DNA from: Oscillatoria princeps RMCB-10
Lineage (GTDB): Bacteria; Cyanobacteriota; Cyanobacteriia; Cyanobacteriales; Oscillatoriaceae
Direction of reading: 5' to 3'
Assembly (NCBI GenBank): GCA_019359235.1
Contig: JAHHHT010000012.1
Location: forward strand, 195,648-240,019
Length of the DNA stretch: 44,372 nt
In this document: one piece after another, positions 1 to 26,886 of the stretch
How the letters are laid out: every line of letters begins with the position of its first letter
How positions within the stretch are numbered: position 1 is the first letter of the stretch
The notes under the pieces: model-generated
Database searches by the model: none
Seen by the model: only the letters and a program-made list of their open reading frames with translations
What the model was told of the DNA's origin: nothing
Program-made: the position numbers and the translations under genes

Positions 1-1008
1 CGGACATTTTCAATGGAGGCGTCGATAAAGTCTTCTTGGCGGAAAGTCACTCGCACCTGAACATCTTTGGGCAAGCCGGCTCTCACTTCTTCCATTGCCG
101 CCTCAATGGCGCGAGTGACGGCGGGAGTGTCCGCTTGGGGCTGTTTGTTGACCATCACCACAACGGCTTTTTTGCCATTCAAGCTGCCGTCGCCGCGCTT
201 GAGGGCAGCCCCGATTTGCACTTCGGCAACATCTCCCAATCTGACGGGCGTGCCGGTGCGAGAGGTGATGGCAGATTGCTTCAAGTCGTCAATGGATTCA
301 ATCCGCCCGACTCCCCGGATTAGCAGTTCTTGGTCTGGGTTGATGAGGAATCCGCCAGGAGCGTTGACGTTAGCCGCAGCGGCTGCTTCTGTAACGTCTT
401 GCAAGGAGACATCAAAGGCTTTCAGCTTGGCTGGGTCAACTAATACTTGATACTGGCGGATGTCGCCGCCATACGCGATTACTTGGGAGACGCCGGGGAC
501 AGCCAGCAGCCGGTTTGTGACTTGCCAGTCAACAATTCGCCGCACTTCCATGAGGGAAGTGGTTTCGGAGGTGAGCGCATATTGCAATACCGTGCCGATG
601 GGGGAGCTGATGGGGGAAATTTGCGGGGAATCTGCGCCTTCTGGCAGTTTTTCTTGCGCTTGCTGCAATCGCTCGGTGACCAGTTGGCGAGCTTGGTAGA
701 TGTCGGTTTGCCAGTTGAAGATGACTCTCACAACAGAAAGACCGACGGCTGAGGCGGAGCGCACTGTTGTGACGCCGGGAGTGCCATTAATGGCGCTTTC
801 AATGGGTAAGGTGACGAGGGATTCGACTTCTTCTGGCGCTAAGCCGGCGGCTTCTGTTTGGATTTCCACTTGCGGTGGGGCAAAGCTGGGGAAGACATCC
901 ACCGGCATTTGCGAGGCGACGCGAAATATCCAAAGGGTGATCAGGATGCCGGCGAGGATAACTAGCCAGCGTTGCGCAATTGACCATTTGATGATAGCAC
1001 TGAGCATT
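1..1008 (-). CDS. Heavy-metal efflux RND transporter, CzcA/CusA/NrsA family. Only the N-terminal ~336 aa are present; the gene runs off the 5' edge of the window.
   Basis: Reverse-complement translation begins with ATG at 1008..1006 and reads MLSAIIKWSIAQRWLVILAGILITLWIFRVASQMPVDVFPSFAPPQVEIQTEAAGLAPEEVESLV..., the characteristic HME-RND N-terminus (TM1 followed by a large periplasmic loop). It is not in the ORF track because it has no stop codon inside the window. The plus-strand ORFs listed between 36 and 1074 are antisense artefacts of this gene. Confidence 0.75.
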
Positions 1009-1056
1009 GGGCCGGTGTCCAGTCGTGATAACTCCCTCGTCAATTGTTGGCAGGGG

Positions 1057-1077
1057 AAAATGAAATCAGGATGAAAT
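1057..1077. promoter_or_regulatory. Direct-repeat motif AAAATGAAATCAGGATGAAAT, containing two ATGAAAT units 11 bp apart, ~50-70 bp upstream of the czcA-like start.
   Basis: An identical 21-mer recurs at 4443..4463, at the same distance upstream of the czcB-like adaptor gene. Confidence 0.45.
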
Positions 1078-4393: not shown

Positions 4394-4442
4394 AACCAGA
4401 AGCCTCTTGTGGGAGATAGGACATACTGTAGAGTTACATAAG

Positions 4443-4463
4443 AAAATGAAATCAGGATGAAAT
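4443..4463. promoter_or_regulatory. Second copy of the AAAATGAAATCAGGATGAAAT direct-repeat motif, 50-70 bp upstream of the adaptor start at 4393.
   Basis: A 21/21 match to the copy at 1057..1077, at identical spacing to its start codon. Confidence 0.45.
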
Positions 4464-9824: not shown

Positions 9825-12800
9825 TCAAACGAGCTCAGAAGCTCCCTCAGACTCCCCCTCCCCTGCCTTCGCGGAAGCCGATTTCCCCATCAGCCGCATT
9901 TGAGCCGTCGTGGCGATCGTGTAAAACACCGGCACCACATACAAACTCAAAAACGTCGAGACAAACATCCCCCCAACAACCGACATCCCGATAGACACCC
10001 TCGCCGCCGCACCGGCACCCGTCGCTAGCGCCAGAGGAATCAACCCAAAAATCGTCGAAAAAGCCGTCATCAAAATCGGGCGAAACCGGATTTTCCCCGC
10101 CTCAATCGCCGCCTTGGCAACCGGCATCCCCTTCTCCCGCAGCTGATTTGCAAACTCCACAATCAAAATCGAGTTTTTCGTCGCCAGCCCAATCAGCATA
10201 ATCAGCCCAATCTGGCTGTAGACATTCAAATCCAAACCCGCCAGCAACAGCGCCGCAAACGCGCCCAGCAGCGACAGGGGCACCGCCAGCAAAATAATGA
10301 TCGGGTCGAGATAGCTCTCAAACTGAGCCGCCAAAACCAAGAAAATAAACGCCAGCGCCAGCAGAAAAATAGCGCCCGTCGCTTGTCCCGCCTCTTTAAA
10401 CTCCAGAGACTGCCCCGCATACGATACCCGAATCTCTGCCGGCAGCACCTCCTTCGCTAACCCCTCCAAAGCATCCAGCGCTTGCCCCAACGTATATCCC
10501 GGTGCGGGGCTGCCTTCAATGGCAGCCGCCCGGAAGCGGTTAAAGTGATTGATTTGCGGCGGCGTCGTCGCAGAACTCACCGACACCACATTGCTCAAAG
10601 GAACCACTTGCCCCTGGCTCGTGCGGATATACAGCTGGCGAATATCCTCCGGACTCGCCCGAAATTCTTTTTCAGCTTGAACAACCACCATCAAGCGCCG
10701 GTTGCCCCGGTTGAAACTCGTAATTTTCTGACTTCCCAAAAGGATTTGCAGCGTCCGAGAAATCTCCTGCACCGAAATCCCCAAATTCGCCGCTTGCGCC
10801 CGGTCTACGCTGACAGTCAGCTCCGGTTTATTCAGCTTTAAATTCGTGTCGATATTCACCAACTGCGGCAGCTGCCGCGCCCGACCGGCAAACTCAGCAG
10901 AAACTTGAGCCAGCGTTTCTAAATCGCTGCCTTGCAGCACAAACTGAACCGGCTGCCCGAAACCGCCCCCCGGCAAAGCAGGCGGATTGATTGGCAGCAC
11001 AAAAGCGTCCGTAATTGCGGCAAACCGGCCAAAAAGCTGGCCAATAACCGCTTTTTGCGACTGCTGCGGCTCCTTGCGCTCCTCCCAAGGCTTCAGCCGG
11101 ACAAACGCAAATCCCTGATTCACCTGACCGGGCGCACCCCCACCAAACGCACCAATGGTAAAATAAGTATTAACGTCCTTCACCTGGCTGAGCGTCTGTT
11201 CAATTTCCCCCATCACCTTGTCGGTGTAGTTGATAGTCACCCCTTCCGGTGCCCGCACAATCGTAAAAACAGCCCCCCGATCCTCCGCAGGCAAAAATTC
11301 CAGCGGCAGCTGTTTGAACAGCTGAAACGTCAGCCCCAGCGACACAAAAAACCCCAGAATAACGACCGCCTTTAAAGGCATCAAAATCCGGATAGAGCGG
11401 TCGTAAATCGCCTGCATCACCTTGACGATCCCCTCAAACAATGCCAGAGGCGCACTGAAAAGAGCCGCCAGAGGATTTTTTCTTTCTTCTTTCGCCCACT
11501 CCGGTTTAGCCGGCTTGAGAATGCGGGCGCACATTGCAGGTGCCAGCGTCAGGGCGACAAAGGCAGAGATCAGCACAGAACCGGCAATCGTGATCGCAAA
11601 TTCTGTAAACAGCCGCCCCGTCGTGCCGGCGGAAAACCCCACCGGCACAAACACCGCAATCAGCACCACCGTGGTAGCAATCACCGCAAACACCACCTCA
11701 CCCGTTGCGGCAAAGGTCGCTTGCCTGGGTTTCATGCCCTTTTCTTCGATGTAGCGGATAATATTTTCCAGCACCACGATCGTGTCGTCCACCACCAGCC
11801 CCGTACACAGCGTCAGGGCAAACAGGGTGAGGGTATTAATAGAATACCCCAAAAAGAACATGATGCCAAAGGCACCGATGAGCGAAACGGGAATCGTCAC
11901 GGCTGGAATCAGAGTTGCCCGCCAGTCTCGCACGAAAAAGAAGATAATCAGAATCACCAGAAAAATCGAGAGGTAGAGCGACCCCCAAACCTCCTCAATG
12001 GCCAGCCGGATAAACTCCGAATTGTCCACCGCCAGCTGGTAGCTCATCCCCTCTGGGAACGACTTCGCGAGTTCCGCCATTTTTTCTTTGGCTTGTTTGG
12101 CTACGTCCAGGGTATTGGCATTGGATAGTTTAACCACCCCTAAACCCACTGCCGGTTTGCTATTAAACCGCACGAAAGAGCGCTCGTCTTCCGCGCCAAT
12201 TTCCGCCCGACCGACATCTTTTAACCTCACTTGCGAGCCGTCTGAATTGCGCTTAATCACCAGAGCTTCATATTCCTCCGGATTCTGGAGCCTTCCGAGG
12301 GTTCGCACGGAATATTCCGAGGTTTGCCCTTCAATGATGCCGCTGGGAATCTCGACATTTTCCCGCCGCAGCGCCTGCTCTACATCCAAAACAGTCAGGT
12401 TGCGGGCGGCGAGTTTCACCGGATCGACCCACAGGCGCATGGCATATTTGCGCTCGCCGCCAATAATAACGGTGCTGACGCCCGGAACAGTTTCCAGCGC
12501 GTCTACGATCGACCGGTCCGCGTAGTCGCTCAACTCCAGCGTGGAGAATTTGCTCTCCGGGCTGTAGAGAGCAAACCACACAATCGGAGAGGCGTCGCTC
12601 GATTGCTTGTTGACAATTGGCGCTTCGATCTCGTCGGGAAGTTTGCCCCGCACTCGGTCCACGCGAGAGCGCACGTCTTGCGCCGCTTCCTCAATGGGCC
12701 GGCTCAGTTCAAACTGGACGGTAATCGCACTCACTGACTCCCGACTTTGTGAGGTGAGGGTTTTAATCCCCTCAACCCCATTAATTTCAGCTTCTAATAT

Positions 12801-12992
12801 TTCAGTGACTTCCGTCTCTACAACTTGGGGGTTGGCACCCGGATAAACCGTAGTTACGCTCACCACCGGCGGGTCAATTGTGGGGTATTCCTGCACCGGC
12901 AGCCGGGTGTAACCCACCAGCCCCACCAAGATAATCAGCAGGGAACACACTGATGAGAAGACCGCTCGCTTGATGAAAAAATTGGTGAACAT
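9825..12992 (-). CDS. Multidrug efflux RND transporter permease (HAE1/AcrB family).
   Basis: The protein is 1055 aa with 12 TM segments and two large periplasmic loops. Diagnostic motifs are ...VVLENIIRYIEEKGMKPRQA... and AAARVSIGMSVVGGMF. Confidence 0.9.
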   Translation of the reverse strand: MFTNFFIKRAVFSSVCSLLIILVGLVGYTRLPVQEYPTIDPPVVSVTTVYPGANPQVVETEVTEILEAEINGVEGIKTLTSQSRESVSAITVQFELSRPIEEAAQDVRSRVDRVRGKLPDEIEAPIVNKQSSDASPIVWFALYSPESKFSTLELSDYADRSIVDALETVPGVSTVIIGGERKYAMRLWVDPVKLAARNLTVLDVEQALRRENVEIPSGIIEGQTSEYSVRTLGRLQNPEEYEALVIKRNSDGSQVRLKDVGRAEIGAEDERSFVRFNSKPAVGLGVVKLSNANTLDVAKQAKEKMAELAKSFPEGMSYQLAVDNSEFIRLAIEEVWGSLYLSIFLVILIIFFFVRDWRATLIPAVTIPVSLIGAFGIMFFLGYSINTLTLFALTLCTGLVVDDTIVVLENIIRYIEEKGMKPRQATFAATGEVVFAVIATTVVLIAVFVPVGFSAGTTGRLFTEFAITIAGSVLISAFVALTLAPAMCARILKPAKPEWAKEERKNPLAALFSAPLALFEGIVKVMQAIYDRSIRILMPLKAVVILGFFVSLGLTFQLFKQLPLEFLPAEDRGAVFTIVRAPEGVTINYTDKVMGEIEQTLSQVKDVNTYFTIGAFGGGAPGQVNQGFAFVRLKPWEERKEPQQSQKAVIGQLFGRFAAITDAFVLPINPPALPGGGFGQPVQFVLQGSDLETLAQVSAEFAGRARQLPQLVNIDTNLKLNKPELTVSVDRAQAANLGISVQEISRTLQILLGSQKITSFNRGNRRLMVVVQAEKEFRASPEDIRQLYIRTSQGQVVPLSNVVSVSSATTPPQINHFNRFRAAAIEGSPAPGYTLGQALDALEGLAKEVLPAEIRVSYAGQSLEFKEAGQATGAIFLLALAFIFLVLAAQFESYLDPIIILLAVPLSLLGAFAALLLAGLDLNVYSQIGLIMLIGLATKNSILIVEFANQLREKGMPVAKAAIEAGKIRFRPILMTAFSTIFGLIPLALATGAGAAARVSIGMSVVGGMFVSTFLSLYVVPVFYTIATTAQMRLMGKSASAKAGEGESEGASELV

Positions 12993-13294: not shown

Positions 13295-14932
13295 TCACTT
13301 CTCCCGTGCTCCCTTGCTCCCTTTCCCCTCACCGCTGGGGAGGGGCATAATAGGCGCACCGTCAGCCAGCTTTTGGATGCCGGAAACAATAATAGTGTCA
13401 CCGGGCACAAGTCCTTCGATGACTTCCGCACGATCCCCATTAACCAAGCCCAGTTTCACCGGCTGCCGTTTCGCCACCGCCGGCTCGTCGGGTCCTGGAG
13501 CCACAAACACAAATCGCTCCTGACCTTGGAAAACCACAGCCGTTGCCGGCACCACAGCACTAGAGCGCCGGTTCCAAATCACCTTGGCCCGCACGAACTC
13601 GCCATTCAGCAGCTGCCCTTGGGGATTGTCAAACGCCGCTTTTGCCAGAACCGTTTGCGAGTCAGTCACCGTTGGGGAAATAAAGCTAACCCGACCTGTC
13701 CCCAAGGATTTCCCTTGCGAGTCGCTCAGCTCCACCGGCAGCCCCTCACGCAAATCCGACGCCCGCTCCAAAGGAACCGGCATGCGCAGTTCCAGAAATT
13801 CGTTCTGCGTCACCGTGGTGATCTCGTCCCCTTTTTTGACATAATCTCCCAATTTCACGGGAATATCGCCGATTTTCCCGGCAAAAGGGGCCACTACCGC
13901 CGCCCTTTCCAGCTGGGATTCCGCGTTCCGCACTTGGGCTGCCGCTTGGGCCACTTGCGCTTCCGCTTGCGCGATCTCCTCTGGGCGGGAGCCATTCTGC
14001 AGTTGCAGCAGGGCTTGCCGCTGCTGTTCCACTTCCGCTTTCAGCCGCTCAATGTCGGAAGTCCTGCCCTTTCGCACTTGAGCCAAGCGCCTTTCGGCTT
14101 CTTGCAACTGGGCGGCGGCGCTGCGGTCTTCTTTTATATATTGATCCAGCGTGTCCTGAGCAATCGCCCCCTGCTGCGCCAATTCCCCATACCGGCTCAC
14201 CCGCTGCTTGGTGAGTTCTGCAGCGGCTTTTGCCGACTCCAATCGCGCTTCAGCTTGAGCGATCTCTTCCGGTGCCGCCCCAGCTTGCGCATCGGCGAGG
14301 CGGGTTTCCGCTGCGGCTAAACTGGCTTTGGCTCTGGCAATTTCCTCCGGGCGGCTGCCGGCTTGCAGCTCTTTGAGCCTAGCTTCGGCACCGAGCTGGT
14401 TCGCCTTGGCTTGGCGGAGCTCGGCTTGCAGGGAGTCGCTCTCTATGCGAGCCACCGAGGTCCCTTTTGCCACCTGCGAGCCGGATTTGACATAGATTTC
14501 CCTGACTAAACCGTCGATTTCTGCCTTCAGCCCCACTGACTTCTGGGCCTCTAGGGTGCCGACAAACTCCGAGGACTCTTCCACAGGGGCGAGCGCCACT
14601 CGCGCTAGCTTCACCGGCACTCCGCGAGGTTTGCTCAGGGCTGCCGGTGGGCCGCCCGCCGCCCCCTGGCTGCGCGACTGCCACCACTGCCAGCCGAAAA
14701 CCCCACCTCCTGCCAGCAGCAGCAGCCCCACCGCCATCAGCGCAGGCAGCAGCAGCGATCCGGATTTTGGTGGCGGCTGTTCTGCCGGCGGCTCATCTGG
14801 CTCGTATTCCCCCGCATCCTCTGGAGAGAGGACGTAGCCGGTCTTTACATCATCCTGAATGCGAGCCGGTTTCTCCTCGGCTTCAGCTAACCCCTCAGGG
14901 TTCTTAACATGATTGGTTTTCGTCATCAGCAA
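13295..14932 (-). CDS. RND efflux periplasmic adaptor subunit (HlyD family).
   Basis: The protein is 545 aa, with a TM anchor LLLPALMAVGLLLLAGGGVFGW, a coiled-coil hairpin and a beta-barrel. It lies upstream of the pump on the same strand. Confidence 0.85.
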   Translation of the reverse strand: MLMTKTNHVKNPEGLAEAEEKPARIQDDVKTGYVLSPEDAGEYEPDEPPAEQPPPKSGSLLLPALMAVGLLLLAGGGVFGWQWWQSRSQGAAGGPPAALSKPRGVPVKLARVALAPVEESSEFVGTLEAQKSVGLKAEIDGLVREIYVKSGSQVAKGTSVARIESDSLQAELRQAKANQLGAEARLKELQAGSRPEEIARAKASLAAAETRLADAQAGAAPEEIAQAEARLESAKAAAELTKQRVSRYGELAQQGAIAQDTLDQYIKEDRSAAAQLQEAERRLAQVRKGRTSDIERLKAEVEQQRQALLQLQNGSRPEEIAQAEAQVAQAAAQVRNAESQLERAAVVAPFAGKIGDIPVKLGDYVKKGDEITTVTQNEFLELRMPVPLERASDLREGLPVELSDSQGKSLGTGRVSFISPTVTDSQTVLAKAAFDNPQGQLLNGEFVRAKVIWNRRSSAVVPATAVVFQGQERFVFVAPGPDEPAVAKRQPVKLGLVNGDRAEVIEGLVPGDTIIVSGIQKLADGAPIMPLPSGEGKGSKGAREK

Positions 14933-14959
14933 GGACTCCTGACCTTTGGCCTACTGTGA

Positions 14960-14977
14960 GCAGCAAAGCTTTGCTGC
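14960..14977. promoter_or_regulatory. Perfect 18-bp palindrome GCAGCAAAGCTTTGCTGC, ~30 bp upstream of the adaptor start.
   Basis: Self-complementary sequence lying between the PadR remnant and the adaptor gene. It could be an operator or an attenuator. Confidence 0.4.
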
Positions 14978-15130
14978 GACAGCGTGCGGTGCGGGCGGCA
15001 AGCTTGTTCAGTCCCTCTCTGTGCTGGCGTCCGCTCGACAGCCTGTCTGTCCACTCCCCAGCGCTCGCGCCCTGGTAAATTGTGCGGGAGCATCCCGCTG
15101 CAGCTCTGCCAAATCAATGCGATAATGATT

Positions 15131-15470
15131 TCAGCCTGCGGCAGGAGAGAATATTTTTTGCCAGCTGAATCCCGGCAACGGGATTGAAATGACCCAGCTC
15201 TCTCGCGGATGCTCCAGCATTTTTTGCCGCCAGCGGGCCCGTCCTTTGGCCATGATGCTGTAGATTTTGCGGCAGGGGCCGCTTTCTGACTCCTCCTCCC
15301 CAATGGCGACAATCTCGCCCCGCTCTTGCAAGCCCTTCAGAGCGCGGATAAATCGCTCCGTAGCTGACACTGATGCAGCCGCTCATCAACAGCTCCAGCT
15401 GCTGCTTCAGCCGGTAGCCGTGCGTGGGTTCGCGCTACAATTGGCCCTGTGCGGATAGCTCTAGCTTTTA
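15131..15470 (-). pseudogene. Decayed PadR-family transcriptional regulator.
   Basis: Frame B reads KLELSAQGQL*REPTHGYRLKQQLELLMSGCISVSYGAIYP, with an in-frame TAG where the conserved AEGPMHGY helix is expected. A 1-nt frame change then leads into frame A, which reads ALKGLQERGEIVAIGEEESESGPCRKIYSITAKGR, the PadR wing and helix alpha-4. No ATG starts the reading frame. Confidence 0.55.
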
Positions 15471-15474
15471 TATC

Positions 15475-15497
15475 ATACTGATATACCATATTAGTAT
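15475..15497. promoter_or_regulatory. AT-rich inverted repeat ATACTGATAT-acc-ATATTAGTAT in the divergent promoter region.
   Basis: A 10-bp inverted repeat with one mismatch, directly upstream of the PadR remnant. The surrounding region 15440..15560 is strongly AT-rich. Confidence 0.4.
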
Positions 15498-15769
15498 TAT
15501 AGGCCCAATTTGAAACCACTTAAAAAATTTTTATTAAACTTAATAAAGCGTCATAAAATTTAAACATAAAGGGCCAAGCGGGACAGGCCATGTCAGCTCA
15601 CAGAAGCCGCTCCGCCAGCGTCCTGACCTGCGACCGGTGGCCAACACATCCCGGCGGGGGAGGCAGACGCGCATATAATCTGCTGTTTGATCAAGTTGGG
15701 GGCAAACGTCAATCGCTATACCCATATACGCATAGCCCTCTCTACCCCTCGTTAGTCAATGTAAATTAA

Positions 15770-17137
15770 ATGCTTAAGAGTTTAGATGCCCCCCCTCCAG
15801 TCATGACTCTAAGGATTTGCCGCCTAGTAGCGTTCGCCGGCTTGCTGGCAGCAGCCTCTGGTTGCGGCTGGCTGCCCAAGGAAGCCGCTGACGCCCAAAC
15901 CCGCGCCCCCAGGGCGGAAAGGCCCGCCGCTGCAACGCCGGTCGATGTTGCCATCGCCCGCACCGGCTCGGTGAGCGAGCCGCTGGAGTCCACCGGCACC
16001 ACCCTCCCCGTGCGGGAAGTCTCCCTGCGCCCCCAAGTCGAGGGCAAGCTGCTGGAACTCAACGCCGATGTGGGGGACACCGTACAGAAAGGCCAAGTCC
16101 TCGCCCGACTGGACGACGCCTTGCAGATGAGTGCCGTCGTCGGGGCGGAAGCCGAACTCGCCGCCCGCAAGTCCGAGGTGGCGCGTGCTGAGGCCGAAGT
16201 GAGCAACGCTCGCACCAAAGTCGAAGAGGCGAGACTGCAACTGCAGCAAGCGCAAGCAGACGCCAACCGGCTCGAACAGCTGTTCAAAGAAGGAGCGATT
16301 TCAGCCCAAGCAGCAGAACAGGAGCGGACAGCGGCGCGAACAGCCGAGCAGGCTCTGCGCTCCGCCCAAACGCAAGTTGCCACACAGCAGCAAGCCGTCG
16401 CAGCGGCGCAGGGGCGCGTCGTCGCCCAGCAAGCCATCCTCGCCCAAGTGCGAGAGCGACTCTCCTACTCCGTCTTAACCTCCCCGATCGCCGGCACCGT
16501 GCTCCAGCGCGTCACCGAACCGGGCAATCTCGTGCAGCCCGGGAGCGAACTCCTTAAACTAGGCGACTTCAGCGAGGTGAAAGTCGCCGCCGATATCTCG
16601 GAACTGGAACTGAGCAACATCCGGGTGGGGCAAAGGGTGGGAGTCAAGCTAGACGCCTATCCGCAAGAAAGCTTCACCGGCGAGGTGACGCGCATTTCCC
16701 CCGCCGCCGATCCGCAAGCTCGCCTCGTGCCGGTGGAAGTCACCATTTCCAACAGCAGCGGCAAAATTGGCAGCGGCTTGCTGGCGCGAGTCAGCTTTTC
16801 CTCACGCCAAGCTCAGCGCGTGCTCGTGCCGGTGGCGGCGCTGGAAGCCGGTGGAAGAGGCAGAGGCGGCGCTGGGGGACAGGGCAGCAAAGGCGCAGGG
16901 GAGCCGAAAGGCAGGGGTGCGGGGGAGCAAAGGAGCAGTGAGGGGGTTGTGTTTGTGGTGAGTGGCGAGGGGAAGGAGGTCAAGGTTTCCGCTCGCAGCG
17001 TTCAGCTTGGCGAACGCGCCAACGGGCAGGTCGAAATCCTGTCGGGATTGAATGCGGGAGAGCGATTCGTCGCCCGCGCCGGCAAACCCCTGAAAGACGG
17101 CGACGCCGTTAGCTTAAGTATTCTGTCGGAAAAGTAG
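15770..17137 (+). CDS. RND efflux periplasmic adaptor subunit, a lipoprotein of the HlyD family.
   Basis: Signal peptide with a lipobox (LLAAASGC), a coiled coil and a beta-barrel. A Gly/Lys-rich insert (GGRGRGGAGGQGSKGAGEPKGRGAGEQ) lies near the C-terminus. Confidence 0.85.
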   Translation: MLKSLDAPPPVMTLRICRLVAFAGLLAAASGCGWLPKEAADAQTRAPRAERPAAATPVDVAIARTGSVSEPLESTGTTLPVREVSLRPQVEGKLLELNADVGDTVQKGQVLARLDDALQMSAVVGAEAELAARKSEVARAEAEVSNARTKVEEARLQLQQAQADANRLEQLFKEGAISAQAAEQERTAARTAEQALRSAQTQVATQQQAVAAAQGRVVAQQAILAQVRERLSYSVLTSPIAGTVLQRVTEPGNLVQPGSELLKLGDFSEVKVAADISELELSNIRVGQRVGVKLDAYPQESFTGEVTRISPAADPQARLVPVEVTISNSSGKIGSGLLARVSFSSRQAQRVLVPVAALEAGGRGRGGAGGQGSKGAGEPKGRGAGEQRSSEGVVFVVSGEGKEVKVSARSVQLGERANGQVEILSGLNAGERFVARAGKPLKDGDAVSLSILSEK

Positions 17138-17402: not shown

Positions 17403-19283
17403 CTACAAGAGCGATAAGTGCGGCTGCGATGGTGCGGAGAGAGAAGCTTGCGATGGGTGTGCGGGAAATTCAATGATAAACTCGGTTCCCTTTTTTGGCC
17501 GGCTTTCCATCCAAATGCGACCCTGATGCACCTGCACCACAATCTGATAGGTAATGGCCAGCCCCAAACCCGTGCCTTTGCCAATCGGTTTGGTGGTAAA
17601 AAAGGGGTCAAAAATTTTTGATTGAATCTCAACCGGCACGCCTGTGCCACTATCGCGCACGCCAATGCGCACCAGCAAATTGCCGGCAGTTTCAACCACC
17701 CCGGTTGTAATTTCAATCAGCTTTTCCGGTTGGGGGGAATCGCTGACAGCATCAATAGCATTGCTGAGCAGGTTCATAAAAACCTGATTCATTTGGCTGG
17801 GGTAGCACTCCACCAGAGGCAGATTGCCGTAGTGCTTGAGTACCCCGATTTTGTCCTTCAGCCGGTGGTGCAGCAGCAGCAGCGTGCTGTCGATGCCTTC
17901 GTGCAGGTCAACTTCTTTTTTTTCCGCCTCATCGAGCCGGGAAAAATTGCGCAGCGACAGGACAATCTGGCGGATGCGATCGGTTCCCACCTTCATAGAA
18001 GCGAGCGTGTCCGGTAAATCTTGCTGGACAAATTCAAAGTCTATCTCCTGTTCAAAGTCGCCTATTTCTGGCGGCAAAGCCGGCAGGGCGGCTCTGTACA
18101 AGCTGAGGAGCTGCATTAAGTCTCGCACATATTCGGTAGTGTGGGGCAGGTTGGCATAAATAAAATTCACGGGGTTGTTAATCTCGTGAGCAATCCCCGC
18201 CACCATTTGCCCCAAGCCAGACATTTTCTCGCTCTGGACGAGCTGCGCCTGGGTTTGTTTCAGTTGGGCTAGGGCTTGGTTGAGTTCTGCTGCTTTTTCG
18301 GCGAGGAGTTTGACTTGTTCTTGAGATTTTTCAAATAACCGCACCTGACGCCACGCCCCAAGAATAGCAATCGCCAGCAACCCGCCCAAAACGCAGGCGA
18401 GCACATTCAGCGCCAGAAGCTGGGATTCGAGATTCTCGCGAGGAATCACCAAAGCAACTGACCAGTTCGCTTCTTGCAGGGGAGAGCAGGCAACATAGTA
18501 CCAGTTCCCATCAAGTTGCGTTAATTCAATGGCTCGCTGCTGGCTCACCATCCGCCGGGCGATCGCCGCTAGGTTGGAGTCTGTGACTTCCAGCAAACTG
18601 GGAGCGGGTTTTTCTAGGGTTCCCCTCAGTTTTGGGTCAGGATGGACAATTGCCCTGCCTTGAGAATTGAGGGCAAAGGCATAACTGTTTGGCCCTTGCT
18701 CGATATGGCTCACAACCTGTTCCAGGCGATCTATTTTAATGGCACCTCCCAGCACGGCTTGCGGCTGGGAGCGCTCGCCAACCGGCGCAGCCACGAGCAC
18801 CTGGACAATGCCGGTGGTGCGGCTAGTCAGGGGATCTGAAACGTAAACTTGTCCCGCCATTGCCCTTTGAAACCACAGCCGGTCTAGAATATTTTGTCCC
18901 TGAGCGTAACCGACTTTGGTCGTGTAAAACGAGCCGTCAGAATAGGCGAAAGTGAAATGGTGGTATTCTTTGAGCCGCTCCACTTCTGACTTGAGATAAG
19001 AGCCAGAAACTTCCCAGTCAAGCGAACCCACCACCGGCGTGTTGGCGATGGTTTCCACCTCAGCTTTGCGCGTGGCTAGCCACCGGTCGATTTCATTGAT
19101 GCCTTGCTGGACTTCTAGCAGAGCTTTTTCCCGCAGCTGTTGCAGGATCAGCTCCCGCACCACCTGATAGCTAGCCAGGGCGATCGCACCCACTGCCAGC
19201 GTCGTGCCTGCAAGAATAGAGAGTACAGCTAAGTTGCGCGGTTTCCGCCGTTGCTGATAGCGGCGCTGCCTGGATTGGAACAT
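17403..19283 (-). CDS. Sensor histidine kinase with a periplasmic double-Cache domain.
   Basis: N-terminal TM segment, a ~250-aa extracytoplasmic dCache-like region, a second TM segment and a coiled coil. The HisKA H-box is MVAGIAHEINNP, followed by HATPase_c (GTGLGLAI). There is no receiver domain and no adjacent response regulator. Confidence 0.85.
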   Translation of the reverse strand: MFQSRQRRYQQRRKPRNLAVLSILAGTTLAVGAIALASYQVVRELILQQLREKALLEVQQGINEIDRWLATRKAEVETIANTPVVGSLDWEVSGSYLKSEVERLKEYHHFTFAYSDGSFYTTKVGYAQGQNILDRLWFQRAMAGQVYVSDPLTSRTTGIVQVLVAAPVGERSQPQAVLGGAIKIDRLEQVVSHIEQGPNSYAFALNSQGRAIVHPDPKLRGTLEKPAPSLLEVTDSNLAAIARRMVSQQRAIELTQLDGNWYYVACSPLQEANWSVALVIPRENLESQLLALNVLACVLGGLLAIAILGAWRQVRLFEKSQEQVKLLAEKAAELNQALAQLKQTQAQLVQSEKMSGLGQMVAGIAHEINNPVNFIYANLPHTTEYVRDLMQLLSLYRAALPALPPEIGDFEQEIDFEFVQQDLPDTLASMKVGTDRIRQIVLSLRNFSRLDEAEKKEVDLHEGIDSTLLLLHHRLKDKIGVLKHYGNLPLVECYPSQMNQVFMNLLSNAIDAVSDSPQPEKLIEITTGVVETAGNLLVRIGVRDSGTGVPVEIQSKIFDPFFTTKPIGKGTGLGLAITYQIVVQVHQGRIWMESRPKKGTEFIIEFPAHPSQASLSAPSQPHLSLL

Positions 19284-19705: not shown

Positions 19706-22700
19706 ATGTCAGGATTTAGCGTCAGCGCAACTGCCATCCGCCAGCACATCGGCACCCTCATGCTCACCCTAACAGTAGTAGTGGTGGGGGTTTTCTTCCT
19801 CTCCCAGCTGCAGGTGGATTTATTGCCTAGCATCACCTACCCCCGGATTGGGGTGCGCCTCAGCGCCCCCGGCGTCTCCCCAGAAGTGGGAGTCGAGGAA
19901 ATTACCAAACCCCTGGAAGAAGCCTTCTCCGCCACAGAGGGAGTGGTGCAGATTTTTTCCCAAACCCGCGAGGGACAAATCAGTTTAGATTTGTTCTTCC
20001 AGCCGGGGGGCGATATTGAGCAAGCGCTCAACGACGCCACCGCTTCCTTTAACCGCGCCCGAGGGCGGCTCCCAGACACCATCGAACAGCCGCGCCTGTT
20101 TAAATTTGACCCCTCCCAGCAGCCGGTCTACGAATTTGCCCTCACTTCCCCCGGATTGCGGGATGTGGATTTGCGCGTGTTTGCCGATCAGCAACTGTCG
20201 CGGGAACTGGGCGTGGTTCCCGGCGTCGCGGGAGTCGATGTTGCCGGCGGGGTGAGAGAAGAAGTCAGGGTTTTGCTTGACCTCGACCGGCAGCAAGCTT
20301 TAGGAGTCGGCTTGAGGGATGTGCTCGACACTCTGAGAACCCGCAACCAGGACATTTCTGGCGGGCGCATCCTGGGGGAAAATTCCGAACCGCTAACCCG
20401 CACTGTGGGCAGGTTTAAAAATGCCGGTGAAATTAACACCCTGTCTTTTGATGCCGGGTCTTCAACCTCCAGCCGGCGCGTCTACCTGCGAGACTTTGCC
20501 GAAGTGATTGACGGCACCGAAGACCAGCGGGTTTTCGTTTCTCTCAACGGAGAGCCGGCAGTAAAAGTCAGCATCCAAAAGCAGCCAGACGCTAATACCA
20601 TCACCGTTGTGGACGGGGTTAAAAAACGCCTGGAAGAGCTGCGGGAGTCTGGCTTGATTCCGGAGGAAATGATTTTAATCCCGACCCTGGATGAGTCCCG
20701 CTTCATCCGCAACTCTCTCTCCGATGTGATTAATTCTGGCATTTCTGGAGCTTTGCTGGCTGCAGTGGCGGTGCTGTTCTTTTTGGGTTCGCTCCGCCAA
20801 ACTTTTATTATATCACTGACCATTCCCCTGTGCACACTTGCGGCGCTGATTTTAATGAAGCTGTTGGGCTTGTCCCTGAATTTGTTCAGTCTCGCCGGCC
20901 TAGCTTTGGGGATTGGTCAAGCCATCGACACCAGCGTCGTCATCTTGGAAAATATTGCCGTTGGCGTCAGCACCAATCCGGCAATCACCAGGCGGCGGAA
21001 AAAGAACGCACGCCAGATAATTGAAGAGGCTATCTCGCGGGGGAAAGAGGTAGAATCGTCCATGATTGCCTCCACCGGCGCGAACCTGATATCCGTGCTG
21101 CCATTTCTCCTGGTAGGCGGCTTTTTTTCGCTGCTGTTCAGCGAGTTAATTCTCACCATTTGCTTTGCCGTAGCCGCCTCACTTTTGGTGGCGCTGACTG
21201 TGACGCCGGTGCTGATGTCTCGCCTGCTGGGAATTTCCTGGTCGAGTCGCATCAGTGAGTTCTGGCTGCTGAAACAGTTTAACGCCCGGTTTGAGGACGC
21301 TAAACGCGCCTACGCTGGGGCTTTGAGTTGGGCGCTGCGCTACCGGCTGCTCGTGATAGCGCTCGCCTTCTTGGTGCTCGGCGGCGGCAGCTTGCAGCTC
21401 GCCGGTCAAATTCCCCAAGAAATTCTCCCCCGCATCAACACCGGCCAAGCTAATTTAGTCGCGCAGTTCCCTCCCGGAACGCCTCTGGAAACCAACCGCA
21501 AAGTCATGGGCATTGTCGATGAAATTCTCCGCAATCAGCCAGAAACAGACTATGTTTTTACCACTGCCGGCGGGTTTCTTTTCGGCAGCAACACCACTTC
21601 CAACGCCCTGCGGGCTTCTAGCACAATTACCCTGAAGCCAGGAACTGACGTTCAGGATTTTGTGCAGCGTGCGAGCGCGGAGTTTGACAAGCTGAACTTG
21701 GCTGGAATTCGCTTGCGGCTCAATCCGGGTCAGCTGCGCGGGATTATCCTGACCAACTCGCCGGTGCGGGGGGCTGATGTTGATATTATCCTCCAGGGGG
21801 ATGACGAGCAAAAACTGCGTCAGGCGGGGCGTCAGATACTGGCGGCGCTGGATGAGGGCGTGACGCAGGCGCGGTTTCGACCGGATGCTGATGACCGGCA
21901 GCCAGAAGTGCAAATTCATCCGGAATGGGAGCGTCTGGCGGCTTTTGGGCTGACGGCGCAAGATATTGGCGACACCATTCAGACGGCAATTCAAGGTTCT
22001 GTCCCGACTCAGCTGCAGCGGGGCGAGCGCTTAGTAGACGTGCGGGTGCAGCTCGCTCAGGAGTCGGTGCGCCGCCCTTCGCAGCTAGCACAAATTCCTT
22101 TATTTGTCAATGGCAACCGGCAAATTCGTTTGAGCGATGTGGCGGAAATTAAGGAAGGACAAGCGCCGGGGGAAATTCAGCGAATTAACCAGCGCAACAG
22201 TGTCCTGATTGCCGGCAGTTTGAACAAGGGGGCGACCCTGAGTGATGCGCTGGCGCAAGTGAATAAGGTGCTTGCCGGTGTGGAATTGCCCGAAGGGGTG
22301 ACGGTGCTGCCTTCTTCAGCCGGTCAGACGAATCAGGAATTGCAGAATTCTCTGAAAACTTTGGGGGGACTTTCGGCGTTTTTGGTATTTGTGGTAATGG
22401 CGGTGCAGTACAATTCTCTGCTCGACCCGCTGGCGATTATGTTCACGGTTCCGCTAGCGCTTGCCGGCGGGATTTTGGGGCTTTACGTCACTCAGACCGC
22501 CATCGGCGCAACAGTGCTCGTGGGTGCGGTGCTGCTGGTGGGTATTGTGGTGAATATCGGGATTATCATGGTGGAGCAGGCTAACCAAATTCGGGAAGAG
22601 GAAGGTGTTAGCCGGCAGGCGGCGATCTTGAAAGCCGCTCCCCAGCGGTTGCGCCCGATTATGATGACAACCATCACCACAGTTTTGGGGCTGTTTCCCC

Positions 22701-22945
22701 TGGCGCTGGGAATTGGGGAAGGTGCAGAATTTATGCAGCCCTTGGGGGTGGTGGTGTTTTCGGGGATGTCTGTATCGACGCTCCTGACGCTGTTTATTAT
22801 TCCCTGTCTGTACACTTTGCTGCACGACTTTCCCGCGCTATTTCGCGTGAGGAAGTTGAAGAAGTTGAAGGTGCCGGTGGCTGTTTCTGATGAGATTCCT
22901 GAGATTTCTCCTGAGATTCCTGAGATTCCTGTCGGGAAGAAATAG
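19706..22945 (+). CDS. Efflux RND transporter permease (AcrB/HAE family).
   Basis: The protein is 1079 aa with 12 TM segments and two large periplasmic loops. The C-terminal tail carries KLKKLK and EIPEISPEIPEIP repeats. Confidence 0.9.
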   Translation: MSGFSVSATAIRQHIGTLMLTLTVVVVGVFFLSQLQVDLLPSITYPRIGVRLSAPGVSPEVGVEEITKPLEEAFSATEGVVQIFSQTREGQISLDLFFQPGGDIEQALNDATASFNRARGRLPDTIEQPRLFKFDPSQQPVYEFALTSPGLRDVDLRVFADQQLSRELGVVPGVAGVDVAGGVREEVRVLLDLDRQQALGVGLRDVLDTLRTRNQDISGGRILGENSEPLTRTVGRFKNAGEINTLSFDAGSSTSSRRVYLRDFAEVIDGTEDQRVFVSLNGEPAVKVSIQKQPDANTITVVDGVKKRLEELRESGLIPEEMILIPTLDESRFIRNSLSDVINSGISGALLAAVAVLFFLGSLRQTFIISLTIPLCTLAALILMKLLGLSLNLFSLAGLALGIGQAIDTSVVILENIAVGVSTNPAITRRRKKNARQIIEEAISRGKEVESSMIASTGANLISVLPFLLVGGFFSLLFSELILTICFAVAASLLVALTVTPVLMSRLLGISWSSRISEFWLLKQFNARFEDAKRAYAGALSWALRYRLLVIALAFLVLGGGSLQLAGQIPQEILPRINTGQANLVAQFPPGTPLETNRKVMGIVDEILRNQPETDYVFTTAGGFLFGSNTTSNALRASSTITLKPGTDVQDFVQRASAEFDKLNLAGIRLRLNPGQLRGIILTNSPVRGADVDIILQGDDEQKLRQAGRQILAALDEGVTQARFRPDADDRQPEVQIHPEWERLAAFGLTAQDIGDTIQTAIQGSVPTQLQRGERLVDVRVQLAQESVRRPSQLAQIPLFVNGNRQIRLSDVAEIKEGQAPGEIQRINQRNSVLIAGSLNKGATLSDALAQVNKVLAGVELPEGVTVLPSSAGQTNQELQNSLKTLGGLSAFLVFVVMAVQYNSLLDPLAIMFTVPLALAGGILGLYVTQTAIGATVLVGAVLLVGIVVNIGIIMVEQANQIREEEGVSRQAAILKAAPQRLRPIMMTTITTVLGLFPLALGIGEGAEFMQPLGVVVFSGMSVSTLLTLFIIPCLYTLLHDFPALFRVRKLKKLKVPVAVSDEIPEISPEIPEIPVGKK

Positions 22946-25465: not shown

Positions 25466-25541
25466 GTAGGGTGCGTTCCCTCTTCGGGAACGCACCCTAC
25501 CCCTACGAAGCATTACTCCCCTCCCCGCCGGCGGGGAGGGG
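25466..25541. repeat. Family-A hairpin (25466..25500) followed by a family-F hairpin (cccctccccgccggcggggagggg, 25518..25541).
   Basis: Inverted repeats. A family-F copy is present in reverse orientation at 38061..38085. Confidence 0.65.
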
Positions 25542-25554
25542 TTGGGGGTGGGGT

Positions 25555-26886
25555 TTACCCAATACACCGCTCAATCAACTCTTCCACCCCACTCACCGGC
25601 ACAATCCTCACCCCCAACTTCCCCGCAACTTCCCCCACCGTCATATCATCCAAAAACTTCGCCTCCCCATGCTTCAGCATCACCGAAGGCAGCAGAATCC
25701 CATCCCCCAAATCTTTCCCCTCCAAATTATACAGCAAATCCTCCCCAGTCAGCAAGCCGGTGACAGTAATATTTTGCCCCCAGTACCGGCTGGGAAAAGC
25801 CGCCATCTTCACCTCCAGCCCTTCAACCTGATTCAACCGGCACACAATCGGCCCAAACGCCCTCTCAACCGCATTCCCCACCACCCAAGTCAGCCGGCGC
25901 GGCGGAGATACAGCCGCCGGCAATAACCGCTCAGCAGCCCCTTCAAACTCTTTGAGAAACAGCCGAATCGAACCCACCCCATTGCCAATCTGGGGATAAT
26001 CTTCATACTCCGATTCTGCCGGCAACTCCTGACCGGCAATCAAAAACCACTCATCCGCCAGCCAAGCGCAATTCGACTTCATCTCCCGGCGAAACTTCTC
26101 TTGCAAAGCTCGCACTTGCGCAATCACTTCCCGCGCCTTTTCCGGAGTCACCGGCACCAGCTCATCCGCTGCCGGCCTGAACCTCGTCAGACCGGCAGGC
26201 ACCACCGCCACCGACGCCACAGCCGGCACCTTGCCGGTGTGAAACTTCGCCAAATCTAGCAAAGTCCTCTCCAAATGCTCCCCATCATTAATCCCCGGAC
26301 AGACAACCACCTGCGCGTGAACTTGCAACCGCCGCTTTTTAAACCACTTCAGCTGCTCCAAAATCTGACCGGCGCGCAAATTCTTCAGCAAGCGAACCCG
26401 CACCTCTGGCTCAGTCGCGTGCACCGACACATACAGCGGAGACAGCCGCATCCTCTCAATTCTATCCCATTCCTTCTGCGTCAAATTCGTCAGCGTCAAA
26501 TAGCTGCCATAAAGAAAACTCAGCCGGTAGTCATCATCCTTCAGATAGAGAGTTTCCCGCTTTCCCGGCGGCTGCTGGTCGATAAAGCAGAAAGGGCAGC
26601 GATTGTTGCACTGCATCAACCCATCAAATAGCGCCGTTTCAAACTCCAGCCCCAAATCCTCATCGAAATCCTTTTCAATTTCCAGCCGGTGCGTTTTCCC
26701 CTTGACATCTAAGACTTCTAGTGCTAAAATTTCATCAGCGCACAAGAATTTGTAGTCGATCAGGTCGCGGGGGCGCTCGCCGTTTATCGCCACGAGCCGG
26801 TCGCCCGGTTCAAACCCAATTTCCGCTGCTATCGAGTCGGGCAGCACCTTAGTGATTACGGCAGGACGAATTGAACTTTCACTCAT
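25555..26886 (-). CDS. DUF512 protein: N-terminal PDZ domain plus a radical-SAM-like core.
   Basis: PDZ segment (VITKVLPDSIAAEIGFEPGDRLVAINGE), then the Cys motif CNNRCPFCF. The length and architecture match the DUF512 family, which is common in cyanobacteria. Confidence 0.7.
   Translation of the reverse strand: MSESSIRPAVITKVLPDSIAAEIGFEPGDRLVAINGERPRDLIDYKFLCADEILALEVLDVKGKTHRLEIEKDFDEDLGLEFETALFDGLMQCNNRCPFCFIDQQPPGKRETLYLKDDDYRLSFLYGSYLTLTNLTQKEWDRIERMRLSPLYVSVHATEPEVRVRLLKNLRAGQILEQLKWFKKRRLQVHAQVVVCPGINDGEHLERTLLDLAKFHTGKVPAVASVAVVPAGLTRFRPAADELVPVTPEKAREVIAQVRALQEKFRREMKSNCAWLADEWFLIAGQELPAESEYEDYPQIGNGVGSIRLFLKEFEGAAERLLPAAVSPPRRLTWVVGNAVERAFGPIVCRLNQVEGLEVKMAAFPSRYWGQNITVTGLLTGEDLLYNLEGKDLGDGILLPSVMLKHGEAKFLDDMTVGEVAGKLGVRIVPVSGVEELIERCIG

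What the first reader, a model, noticed from the sequence alone, without database searches (positions are those of the whole stretch)
14933..15560. Decayed PadR regulator with candidate operators at the head of an adaptor-pump efflux operon
Upstream of the minus-strand HlyD adaptor + AcrB pump operon lies a PadR-like reading frame. It carries an internal TAG where the conserved recognition-helix residues should be, no ATG start, and a 1-nt frame change before the wing segment (ALKGLQERGEIV...CRKIYSITAKGR). Two symmetric elements flank it. One is a 10-bp inverted repeat ATACTGATAT-N3-ATATTAGTAT in the AT-rich divergent promoter. The other is a perfect 18-bp palindrome GCAGCAAAGCTTTGCTGC between the PadR remnant and the adaptor start. 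PadR-type repressors such as LmrR classically autoregulate multidrug pumps through such palindromes. Loss of the repressor would predict constitutive pump expression. The divergent plus-strand adaptor gene at 15770 could share this control region.
Basis: partly seen in the sequence, partly recalled or inferred. Interest (0 to 1): 0.55.

Follow-up and report, generated by a model that had tools for sequence, protein, structure and literature searches.

The report
Dead PadR repressor before efflux pump
A cyanobacterial gene for a PadR-type repressor that normally sits in front of a drug-efflux pump operon has been destroyed in this genome, while its conserved binding site and the pump genes survive, so the pump is probably permanently switched on; this is an ordinary kind of event.

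Summary
The PadR remnant is real: the stitched translation scores 59 bits against Pfam PadR. It is a true pseudogene. Three closely related lineages (L123, L002, L121/L122) carry an intact 191-aa padR at the same locus, and every lesion is specific to this window. The lesions are ATG>AAG at the start, CAG>TAG at codon 11, a +1 nt frameshift in codon 42, and replacement of the whole C-terminal dimerisation domain by about 104 nt of unrelated sequence (net loss 277 nt).

On the window's own branch the remnant changed at the neutral rate (14 changes in 276 nt, 11 non-synonymous). The two flanking adaptor genes stayed under purifying selection.

Neither proposed operator holds up. The 18-bp palindrome is perfect only in this genome and is not conserved. 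The 10-bp inverted repeat is 9/10 and window-specific. The conserved element is ATATCA-N3-TGATAT, present 66 times in 1.02 Mb of orthologous loci, always within 66 nt upstream of padR and 61 times at exactly -17. The window keeps a perfect copy at 15469-15485.

The regulator belongs to two-domain PadR subfamily 1, not the LmrR type. Likely consequence: constitutive pump expression (inferred). Ordinary biology, modest interest.

The parts
15190..15467 (-). Remnant of the padR N-terminal winged-helix domain (ancestral codons 1-92), inactivated
   Evidence: PF03551 at 59.2 bits on the stitched translation. About 91% nt identity to intact padR in L002. Aligned to L123, L002, L121 and L122.
15465..15467 (-). 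Former start codon, ATG>AAG
   Evidence: All four relatives have ATG here. Coordinates.
15435..15437 (-). Nonsense codon TAG replacing Gln11 (CAG) at the end of helix alpha1
   Evidence: Helix positions from the model.
15342..15344 (-). Site of the +1 nt insertion (with adjacent substitutions) in codon 42, inside recognition helix alpha3
   Evidence: Alignment blocks (gap at 15343; CCGC-TGCTG in relatives, CCGCGCTCTG in the window).
15086..15189 (-). About 104 nt of filler of unknown origin. It stands where relatives have 381 nt: codons 93-191 (the C-terminal dimerisation/effector domain), the stop codon and the 3' flank.
   Evidence: No similarity to relatives or to the rest of the window.
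15131..15370 (-). 79-aa GTG ORF that the source annotation calls a PadR regulator (P0002). It is the post-frameshift fragment plus a tail read from the filler.
15469..15485 (.). Conserved operator candidate TATATCA-GTA-TGATATA (core ATATCA-N3-TGATAT at 15470-15484), ending 2 nt before the former start codon
   Evidence: It is the only match with up to 2 mismatches near the locus, and an exact one. There are 66 exact copies in 1.02 Mb of orthologous loci, all within 66 nt upstream of padR and 61 at -17. It is identical in L123 and L002.
15496..15501 (-). -10-like hexamer TATAAT, 29-34 nt upstream of the former start codon; TATAAT or TATACT at the same place in the close relatives
   Evidence: Read from the alignment; coordinates. 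The consensus promoter scan did not call it, so this is inference.
15475..15497 (.). It overlaps the conserved operator by one arm and is not conserved.
14960..14977 (.). 18-bp palindrome in the leader of MFP1. It is perfect only in this genome and lies inside a stretch conserved among close relatives.
13295..14926 (-). MFP1, periplasmic adaptor (543 aa from ATG 14926), intact
   Evidence: Pfam HlyD_3 and HlyD_D23. 96% identical to P0121. 17 synonymous and 12 non-synonymous changes on the window branch.
9825..12992 (-). RND1, AcrB-type inner-membrane pump (1055 aa), intact
   Evidence: PF00873 at 1114.8 bits, full length.
15803..17137 (+). MFP2, divergent adaptor with a lipoprotein-type N-terminus (MTLRICRLVAFAGLLAAASGC), intact
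   Evidence: Pfam. 14 synonymous and 10 non-synonymous changes on the window branch. Start position.

Best explanation
This is the wreck of an autoregulated two-domain (subfamily-1) PadR repressor gene.

In related filamentous cyanobacteria the gene is the first in a padR-adaptor-RND pump operon, and often faces a second, divergent adaptor/pump pair. The ancestral protein most likely bound as a dimer to the palindrome ATATCA-N3-TGATAT, which ends 2 nt before its own start codon and lies just downstream of a TATAAT-like -10 box. That would block transcription of padR and the pump genes until an unknown ligand released it.

In this genome padR was inactivated early on its own branch and has since drifted neutrally. 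The lesions are loss of the start codon, a nonsense codon at position 11, a frameshift in the recognition helix, and loss of the dimerisation/effector domain. The promoter, the operator and the pump genes are intact, and the pump genes are still under purifying selection.

The expected result is constitutive, repressor-free transcription through the pseudogene into MFP1-RND1, and possibly of the divergent MFP2.

Shown: the pseudogene, its lesions, synteny, operator conservation and the selection pattern. Inferred: repression, autoregulation, co-transcription and the derepressed state.
For: Family and fold:
- PadR HMM match on the stitched remnant.
- 257 homologues, nearly all 170-200 aa cyanobacterial PadR proteins.
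- The closest solved sequence is M. tuberculosis Rv0047c, 8jxk, at E=8e-18 over residues 1-170.
- The AlphaFold model has a winged helix plus three long C-terminal helices. It gives full-length Foldseek hits to subfamily-1 structures 8jxk, 8ioi, 5x11 and VanR, but matches LmrR only over about 80 columns.

Intact orthologues at the same locus:
- L002, L121/L122 and L123. L123's adaptor is 96% identical to the window's.
- All lesions are window-specific.

Selection:
- 14 window-branch changes in 276 nt of padR (5.1%), of which 11 are non-synonymous.
- Fourfold-site rates on the same branch are 15/286 in MFP1 and 11/248 in MFP2.
- Synonymous to non-synonymous counts are 17:12 for MFP1 and 14:10 for MFP2. 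Fisher p=0.017 against padR.
- Ten window residues are never seen in 23 orthologues.

Synteny:
- padR is followed by MFP1-like and RND1-like genes in most of the 80 loci.
- The padR-to-MFP gap is as short as 8-25 nt in several.
- No terminator-like site was found in the window's gap.

Operator:
- 66 exact ATATCA-N3-TGATAT copies in 1.02 Mb, none away from padR's upstream region, 61 at -17. The motif survives in 19 loci whose upstream flanks are otherwise less than 60% alike.
- The window has one exact copy.
- The same truncated 79-aa product was seen on two contigs.
Against: - No expression or binding data exist for any member of this clade. Three literature searches found no study of a cyanobacterial PadR-RND pair.
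- The operator arms are invariant, so nothing distinguishes protein binding from another constraint, such as promoter or translation-start context, except the two-fold symmetry and the lack of compensating changes in variant copies.
- The half-site spacing (6-bp arms, 3-bp spacer) differs from the B. subtilis PadR operator (6-bp arms, 6-bp spacer; PMC5728393).
- A paralogous PadR elsewhere in the 8.6-Mb genome could still occupy the operator. Only the window could be searched, and it holds no other PadR.
- The 85 nt upstream of MFP1 are very conserved among close relatives. They might carry an independent promoter or control element that I could not identify.
Confidence: 0.72

Rival explanations
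1. Assembly or sequencing artefact: the organism really has an intact padR, and the lesions are errors in a long-read assembly.
For: The source is a single 8.63-Mb contig, which suggests long reads. One lesion is a 1-nt indel.
Against: - There are four different kinds of lesion, including two point substitutions and a 277-nt net loss with replacement sequence.
- Eleven further window-specific substitutions fit the neutral rate of the branch.
- The neighbouring ORFs of 543, 1055, 444, 626 and 1079 codons are uninterrupted.
- The exact 79-aa product, which depends on both the frameshift and the filler, occurs on two contigs.
Confidence: 0.03
2. The annotated 79-aa ORF (15131-15370) still makes a functional truncated protein (end of alpha3, wing and alpha4) that retains some regulatory or other role.
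For: The source annotation calls it a PadR regulator. Window-branch changes are fewer in codons 46-92 (3) than in codons 1-45 (11), one-sided binomial p=0.024.
Against: - It lacks alpha1, alpha2 with the conserved HGY tyrosine, and half of the recognition helix.
- It lacks the whole dimerisation domain that subfamily-1 proteins need (PMC5728393).
- Its last 20 residues come from unrelated filler.
- The 11-to-3 imbalance is weak and was noticed post hoc.
Confidence: 0.05
3. One reading: the 18-bp palindrome and/or the 10-bp inverted repeat are operators, for PadR or for another regulator that now controls the pump.
For: - Both are present.
- The palindrome lies 33 nt upstream of the MFP1 start, in an 85-nt stretch that is almost invariant among the close relatives.
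- The window-specific A>T change made it more symmetric.
Against: - The symmetry is not conserved. L123 and L002 have a 12-bp core with a mismatch beyond it, and L121 breaks the core.
- No comparable inverted repeat occurs upstream of MFP1 in about 60 other loci.
- A palindrome this long appears in 15% of shuffles.
- The leader folds no better than shuffles, z=+0.8 and +0.15.
- The inverted repeat's left arm sits in sequence that differs in all four lineages.
Confidence: 0.08
4. The whole cassette is being lost: the promoter is dead and the pump genes are silent and will decay next.
For: Regulator loss can be the first step of operon decay. The consensus scan called no sigma-70 promoter in the region.
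Against: - MFP1 and MFP2 have about four-fold fewer non-synonymous than synonymous changes per site on the same branch on which padR drifted neutrally.
- RND1 is a full-length 1055-aa ORF.
- The -10-like TATAAT and the operator are unchanged.
Confidence: 0.07

Closest known systems
PadR subfamily-1 repressors (B. subtilis PadR/padC; Listeria LadR; C. glutamicum VanR; V. cholerae AphA)
   Same: - Orthologues have the N-terminal winged helix plus the three-helix C-terminal dimerisation domain.
- The HGY, IYP and RK motifs sit where Tyr20, Tyr42 and Lys67 of B. subtilis PadR lie (PMC5728393).
- A palindromic site lies next to the regulated genes.
- From my own knowledge, LadR also represses an efflux pump gene.
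   Different: - The target is an MFP + RND tripartite-type pump in cyanobacteria.
- The candidate operator has 6-7-bp arms with a 3-bp spacer, against 6-bp arms with a 6-bp spacer for B. subtilis PadR (PMC5728393).
- The ligand is unknown.
- In this window the gene is dead.
M. tuberculosis Rv0047c / NapM (PDB 8jxk) and Rv1176c (8ioi)
   Same: They are the closest solved structures to the intact orthologue. 8jxk: E=8e-18 by sequence and TM 0.67-0.77. 8ioi: TM 0.70.
   Different: About 28-30% identity for 8jxk and 16-18% for 8ioi. NapM is described as a pleiotropic regulator or nucleoid-associated protein (bioRxiv 10.1101/2024.11.29.625984), not a dedicated pump repressor.
LmrR-LmrCD of Lactococcus lactis
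   Same: A PadR-family repressor that controls a multidrug transporter through a palindromic operator and is released by drugs.
   Different: LmrR is single-domain subfamily 2 (11-13 kDa), with an inter-subunit drug pocket (PMC5728393). It aligns to the model only over the 80-residue winged helix. It regulates an ABC transporter, not an RND pump.
Loss-of-function mutations in local efflux repressors (for example acrR, mexR, nfxB, ramR in Gram-negative pathogens; my own knowledge)
   Same: The repressor gene next to an RND pump is inactivated while the pump is kept, giving constitutive efflux.
   Different: Those cases are TetR, MarR or LysR-type repressors in clinical isolates under antibiotic selection. 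Here it is a PadR-type repressor in an environmental cyanobacterium, with no known selective agent and no expression data.

Membership tests
PadR family (Pfam PF03551) | [quoted passage not shown] | tested here: met
   The stitched remnant scores 59.2 bits against a cutoff of 27, E=4e-16. Orthologues carry PF03551.
PadR family (Pfam PF03551) | An intact, translatable gene | tested here: not met
   Start codon lost, TAG at codon 11, +1 frameshift at codon 42, C-terminal half replaced. It is a pseudogene of the family, not a working member.
PadR family (Pfam PF03551) | Conserved DNA-contact residues (Tyr20, Tyr42, Lys67 of B. subtilis PadR; PMC5728393) | tested here: inconclusive
   Y18 (HGY), Y40 (IYP) and K67 (RK) are invariant or nearly so in 23 orthologues and are still encoded in the remnant. 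Equivalence to the B. subtilis residues rests on motif position. I did not inspect a residue-level alignment.
PadR subfamily 1 (two-domain) | C-terminal helical dimerisation/effector domain, total size about 19-22 kDa | tested here: met
   For the orthologues:
- Length is 167-217 aa.
- Several carry PF10400.
- The model has helices at 91-103, 110-132 and 140-168.
- There are full-length Foldseek hits to 8jxk, 8ioi and 5x11.

In the window itself this domain is deleted.
PadR subfamily 2 (LmrR/Pex type) | Single-domain protein of about 110 aa that dimerises through terminal helices | tested here: not met
   Orthologues are two-domain proteins. LmrR structures align over only about 80 columns, TMq 0.32-0.35.
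Autoregulated repressor-pump operon | Regulator gene adjacent to, and co-oriented with or divergent from, the transporter genes across species | tested here: met
   78 of 81 loci with padR show an MFP and/or RND gene next to it. Intergenic gaps are as short as 8-25 nt.
Autoregulated repressor-pump operon | Symmetric operator in the regulator's own promoter region, conserved across species | tested here: met
   ATATCA-N3-TGATAT: 66 of 66 exact copies in 1.02 Mb lie within 66 nt upstream of padR. The window's copy is at 15470-15484.
Autoregulated repressor-pump operon | Demonstrated binding of the protein to the operator and ligand-dependent release | not testable with these tools
   Needs EMSA or footprinting and expression assays. 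No published work on this clade was found.
RND efflux system (MFP + AcrB-type pump) | Full-length ACR_tran transporter and an HlyD-type adaptor | tested here: met
   RND1 matches PF00873 at 1114.8 bits over profile positions 2-1019 of 1021. MFP1 matches HlyD_3 and HlyD_D23.

The most novel reading that the evidence does not exclude
This genome may be a natural knock-out of a so far uncharacterised PadR clade that is widespread in filamentous cyanobacteria. The clade would gate RND pumps through a start-codon-proximal ATATCA-N3-TGATAT operator. Loss of the repressor would then have been selected because constitutive efflux was advantageous, and the pump has since been maintained for about 5% neutral divergence without its regulator.
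Probability: 0.4. Interest if true: 0.4.

Novelty: new member of a known kind. Interest (0 to 1): 0.3.

Why it matters
The case gives a clean, datable example of repressor loss with pump retention in an environmental cyanobacterium. As a by-product it yields a testable operator (ATATCA-N3-TGATAT at -17) and a regulon prediction for a PadR clade found next to RND pumps in many Oscillatoriales-type genomes, for which I found no published study. It also corrects the source annotation, which calls a 79-aa fragment a PadR regulator. It does not reveal a new kind of mechanism.

Tried and rejected
- **Rfam.** A scan of 14700-15900 at E<=1 gave no hit.
- **Promoter and terminator scan.** The consensus scan of 14800-15900 called nothing. 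The -10 box I name is therefore read from the alignment only.
- **RNA folding of the MFP1 leader.** The window (z=+0.77) and L002 (z=+0.15) fold no better than shuffles. No compensatory changes occur in the palindrome stem.
- **Metagenome DNA-pattern scans.** The operator-plus-start pattern found nothing. The palindrome pattern found 38 unrelated chance matches.
- **Origin of the 104-nt filler.** I found no similarity elsewhere in the window, in 80 orthologous loci or in the close relatives. It contains two small hairpins, one being AATCCCG-TTGC-CGGGATT at 15168-15185, which is unique in the window.
- **A second operator copy.** No copy lies upstream of MFP1, MFP2 or RND2. Nothing with up to 2 mismatches turned up, and the next best matrix score was 13-14 against 32 for the real site. 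That matrix was built from only 10 sites.
- **Substitution asymmetry.** Against L002 alone, codons 1-45 had 1 synonymous and 13 non-synonymous changes, while codons 46-92 had 7 and 1 (Fisher p=3.5e-4). This looked as if the 3' half were still under selection. After polarising with L123 and L121, most 3'-half changes fall on other branches. The window-branch imbalance is only 11 to 3, p=0.024.
- **A new ORF over the padR N-half.** A window-specific ATG at 15489 opens a 50-aa ORF in the +1 frame. That frame is also open in L002, and the changes in it are about 4 synonymous to 6 non-synonymous (my own count from the alignment, not scripted), which is unremarkable. I did not pursue it.

Full report
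**What is at the coordinates**

The three minus-strand frames across 14900-15600 show a PadR-like sequence split between two frames. One frame reads KLELSAQGQL*REPTHGYRLKQQLELLMSGCISVSYGAIYP. One base on, another reads ALKGLQERGEIVAIGEEESESGPCRKIYSIMAKGRARWRQKMLEHPRESWV.... Stitched together, these hit Pfam PadR (PF03551) at E=4e-16 and 59.2 bits, against a cutoff of 27.

Downstream on the same strand lie an HlyD-type adaptor (MFP1, 13295-14926) and an AcrB-type pump (RND1, 9825-12992). Upstream and divergent lies a second adaptor (MFP2, from ATG 15803). The window is part of an 8.63-Mb JGI contig. Its annotation calls only a 79-aa ORF (15131-15370) a PadR regulator.

**It is a real pseudogene, and its history can be read**

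A protein search with the stitched sequence returned 257 homologues. Nearly all are cyanobacterial PadR proteins of 170-200 aa, and the best is 87% identical (P0001, 191 aa).

Four loci from three closely related lineages carry the same gene order and an intact 191-codon padR. The order is histidine kinase, MFP2, padR, MFP1, RND1, RNase III. The loci are:
- L002;
- L121 and L122;
- L123, whose MFP1 is 96% identical to the window's.

In the five-way alignment every lesion is specific to the window:
- ATG>AAG at the start (15465-15467);
- CAG>TAG at codon 11 (15435-15437);
- one extra base, with neighbouring substitutions, in codon 42 (about 15343);
- from codon 93 onward, 381 nt of the relatives (the C-terminal domain, the stop codon and the 3' flank) are represented by only about 104 nt (15086-15189) that match nothing I could find.

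I modelled the intact orthologue from 23 sequences (mean pLDDT 76.6). The model places alpha1 at residues 2-12, alpha2 at 17-28, recognition helix alpha3 at 36-48, the wing at 52-71, alpha4 at 73-83 and three C-terminal helices at 91-168. So the TAG lies at the end of alpha1, not in the recognition helix. The frameshift is in the recognition helix, and the whole dimerisation/effector domain is gone.

**Selection**

With L123 as sister and L121 as outgroup, the window's own branch carries 14 substitutions in the 276 alignable nt of padR (5.1%). Eleven are non-synonymous, and ten produce residues never seen in 23 orthologues.

On the same branch, fourfold-degenerate sites changed at 15/286 in MFP1 and 11/248 in MFP2. 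Those genes show 17 synonymous to 12 non-synonymous and 14 to 10 changes respectively. Assuming about a quarter of sites are synonymous, omega is roughly 0.25 for the adaptors and about 1.3 for padR. The contrast gives Fisher p=0.017.

padR therefore died near the start of this lineage's private branch and has drifted neutrally since, while the pump components stayed under purifying selection.

This, together with the variety of lesions, rules out a simple assembly error. The same 79-aa product was also seen on two contigs.

**What the regulator is**

The closest solved sequence is M. tuberculosis Rv0047c/NapM (8jxk, E=8e-18 over residues 1-170). Foldseek gives full-length matches to the two-domain subfamily-1 structures:
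- 8jxk (TM 0.67-0.77);
- Rv1176c, 8ioi (TM 0.70);
- B. subtilis PadR, 5x11;
- VanR.

Single-domain members such as LmrR align only over about 80 residues. According to PMC5728393, subfamily 1 dimerises through the C-terminal domain and binds its effector in the interdomain pocket. Losing that domain is by itself inactivating.

**Conserved context**

A scan of one genome per species returned 80 loci with intact orthologues. In about 60 of them padR is followed in the same orientation by MFP1-like and RND1-like genes. In nine it lies divergent to such a pair. In four (L029, L060, L069, L079) its only partner is a divergent MFP2/RND2-like pair. L003, like the window, has both.

The gap between padR and the adaptor gene is as short as 8-25 nt in several loci, which fits one operon. 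No terminator-like site lies between the remnant and MFP1 in the window.

**The operator**

Lining up the 110 nt upstream of each padR start showed one conserved element, ATATCA-N3-TGATAT.
- In 1.02 Mb of orthologous loci there are 66 exact copies.
- Every copy lies within 66 nt upstream of padR.
- 61 copies begin at exactly -17, so the site ends 2 nt before the ATG.
- The motif persists in 19 loci whose upstream flanks are otherwise less than 60% alike, with conservation extending to T...A on either side.
- Variant copies carry single-arm changes without compensation. This favours a protein site over an RNA hairpin.

The window has one exact copy, TATATCA-GTA-TGATATA at 15469-15485. It is the only such site in 44 kb and is identical in L123 and L002. 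A TATAAT or TATACT hexamer sits at -34 to -29 in all four close lineages (window 15496-15501). The site would therefore lie just downstream of the likely transcription start; that placement is inference.

Its geometry (6-7-bp arms with a 3-bp spacer) differs from the B. subtilis PadR operator (6-bp arms with a 6-bp spacer; PMC5728393).

The inverted repeat at 15475-15497 is 9/10 complementary. Its right arm overlaps the conserved operator. Its left arm lies in the 10-12 nt between the -10 box and the operator, a stretch that differs in all four lineages.

The 18-bp palindrome at 14960-14977 is perfect only here. L123 and L002 read GCAGCAAAGCTTTGCAGT and L121 reads GCAGCAAAGCTTTACAGC. About 60 other loci have no comparable repeat upstream of MFP1. 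Palindromes of 18 bp or more arise in 30 of 200 shuffles of the window. The leader RNA folds no better than shuffles, and Rfam finds nothing.

The roughly 85 nt before the MFP1 start are nevertheless almost invariant among the close relatives. I cannot explain that.

**Mechanism and verdict**

The best reading has two parts.
- Ancestral state: an autoregulated PadR dimer sat on the start-proximal palindrome. It held padR-MFP1-RND1, and possibly the divergent MFP2, off until a ligand arrived.
- State in this genome: the repressor is gone, while the promoter, operator and pumps remain. Transcription should run unchecked through the pseudogene into the pump genes.

The pseudogene, the lesions, the synteny, the operator conservation and the selection contrast are shown. 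Binding, autoregulation, co-transcription and derepression are inferred. A paralogue elsewhere in the genome could still compensate.

Three literature searches found no study of this cyanobacterial clade. Repressor loss next to an efflux pump is a familiar event, so interest is modest. The useful by-products are the operator prediction and the corrected annotation.

Noticed in passing
window 1056-1077 and 4442-4463 (+): An identical 22-mer, GAAAATGAAATCAGGATGAAAT, occurs twice. It contains the direct repeat ATGAAAT-N4-ATGAAAT (11-bp period, response-regulator-like). The copies lie about 70 nt upstream of a third RND gene (3-986, minus, cut by the window edge) and about 50 nt upstream of a third adaptor gene (2324-4393, minus).
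   Followed up: partly
window 3-986, 2324-4393, 15803-17137, 17403-19283, 19706-22945: The window holds three adaptor/RND sets. In two of them the adaptor and pump genes are separated by an opposite-strand gene. MFP2 and RND2 are split by a dCache histidine kinase (17403-19283, minus). MFP3 and RND3 are split by a 221-aa ORF with no Pfam hit (1076-1741, plus). The kinase-MFP2 arrangement is kept in L121.
   Followed up: partly
window 15086-15189: The 104-nt segment that replaces the padR C-terminal domain has no detectable source. It carries two short hairpins: AATCCCG-TTGC-CGGGATT at 15168-15185 and GCGGGA-TGC-TCCCGC near 15085-15099. It could be the footprint of an insertion/deletion event.
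   Followed up: partly
L121 about 3660-3870 (and L122): The padR-MFP1 intergenic region of this relative has a roughly 200-nt insertion absent from the window, L123 and L002. It includes CCCCCCTTAAAAAGGGGGG, so the spacer is an indel hot spot.
   Followed up: no
window 14930-15015: About 85 nt before the MFP1 start are almost invariant among four lineages, although the neighbouring spacer is variable. The stretch contains two HindIII-centred palindromes, CAAGCTTG (about 14999-15006) and GCAAAGCTTTGC. No -10-like hexamer or stable conserved RNA fold was found.
   Followed up: partly
window 25518-25541: A 24-bp perfect palindrome, CCCCTCCCCGCCGGCGGGGAGGGG, lies just 3' of the radical-SAM/DUF512 gene (25555-26886, minus). 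It is probably a terminator hairpin.
   Followed up: no
window 15803-15865: MFP2 most likely starts at ATG 15803, giving MTLRICRLVAFAGLLAAASGC, a lipoprotein-type signal with a lipobox cysteine. The source annotation's 431-residue call maps to a start about 40 nt downstream, and the longest ORF starts at 15770.
   Followed up: partly
window 15337-15489 (-): A window-specific ATG at 15489 opens a 50-aa ORF in the +1 frame over the dead padR N-half. The frame is also open in L002, but without a start codon. There is no evidence that it is a gene.
   Followed up: partly
L021, L022, L057 (Laspinema), 2-3 kb upstream of padR: A second, more distant PadR-like hit (37-46% identity to part of the query) lies near the padR-MFP-RND cassette in these genomes. 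Paralogues can therefore sit close by.
   Followed up: no
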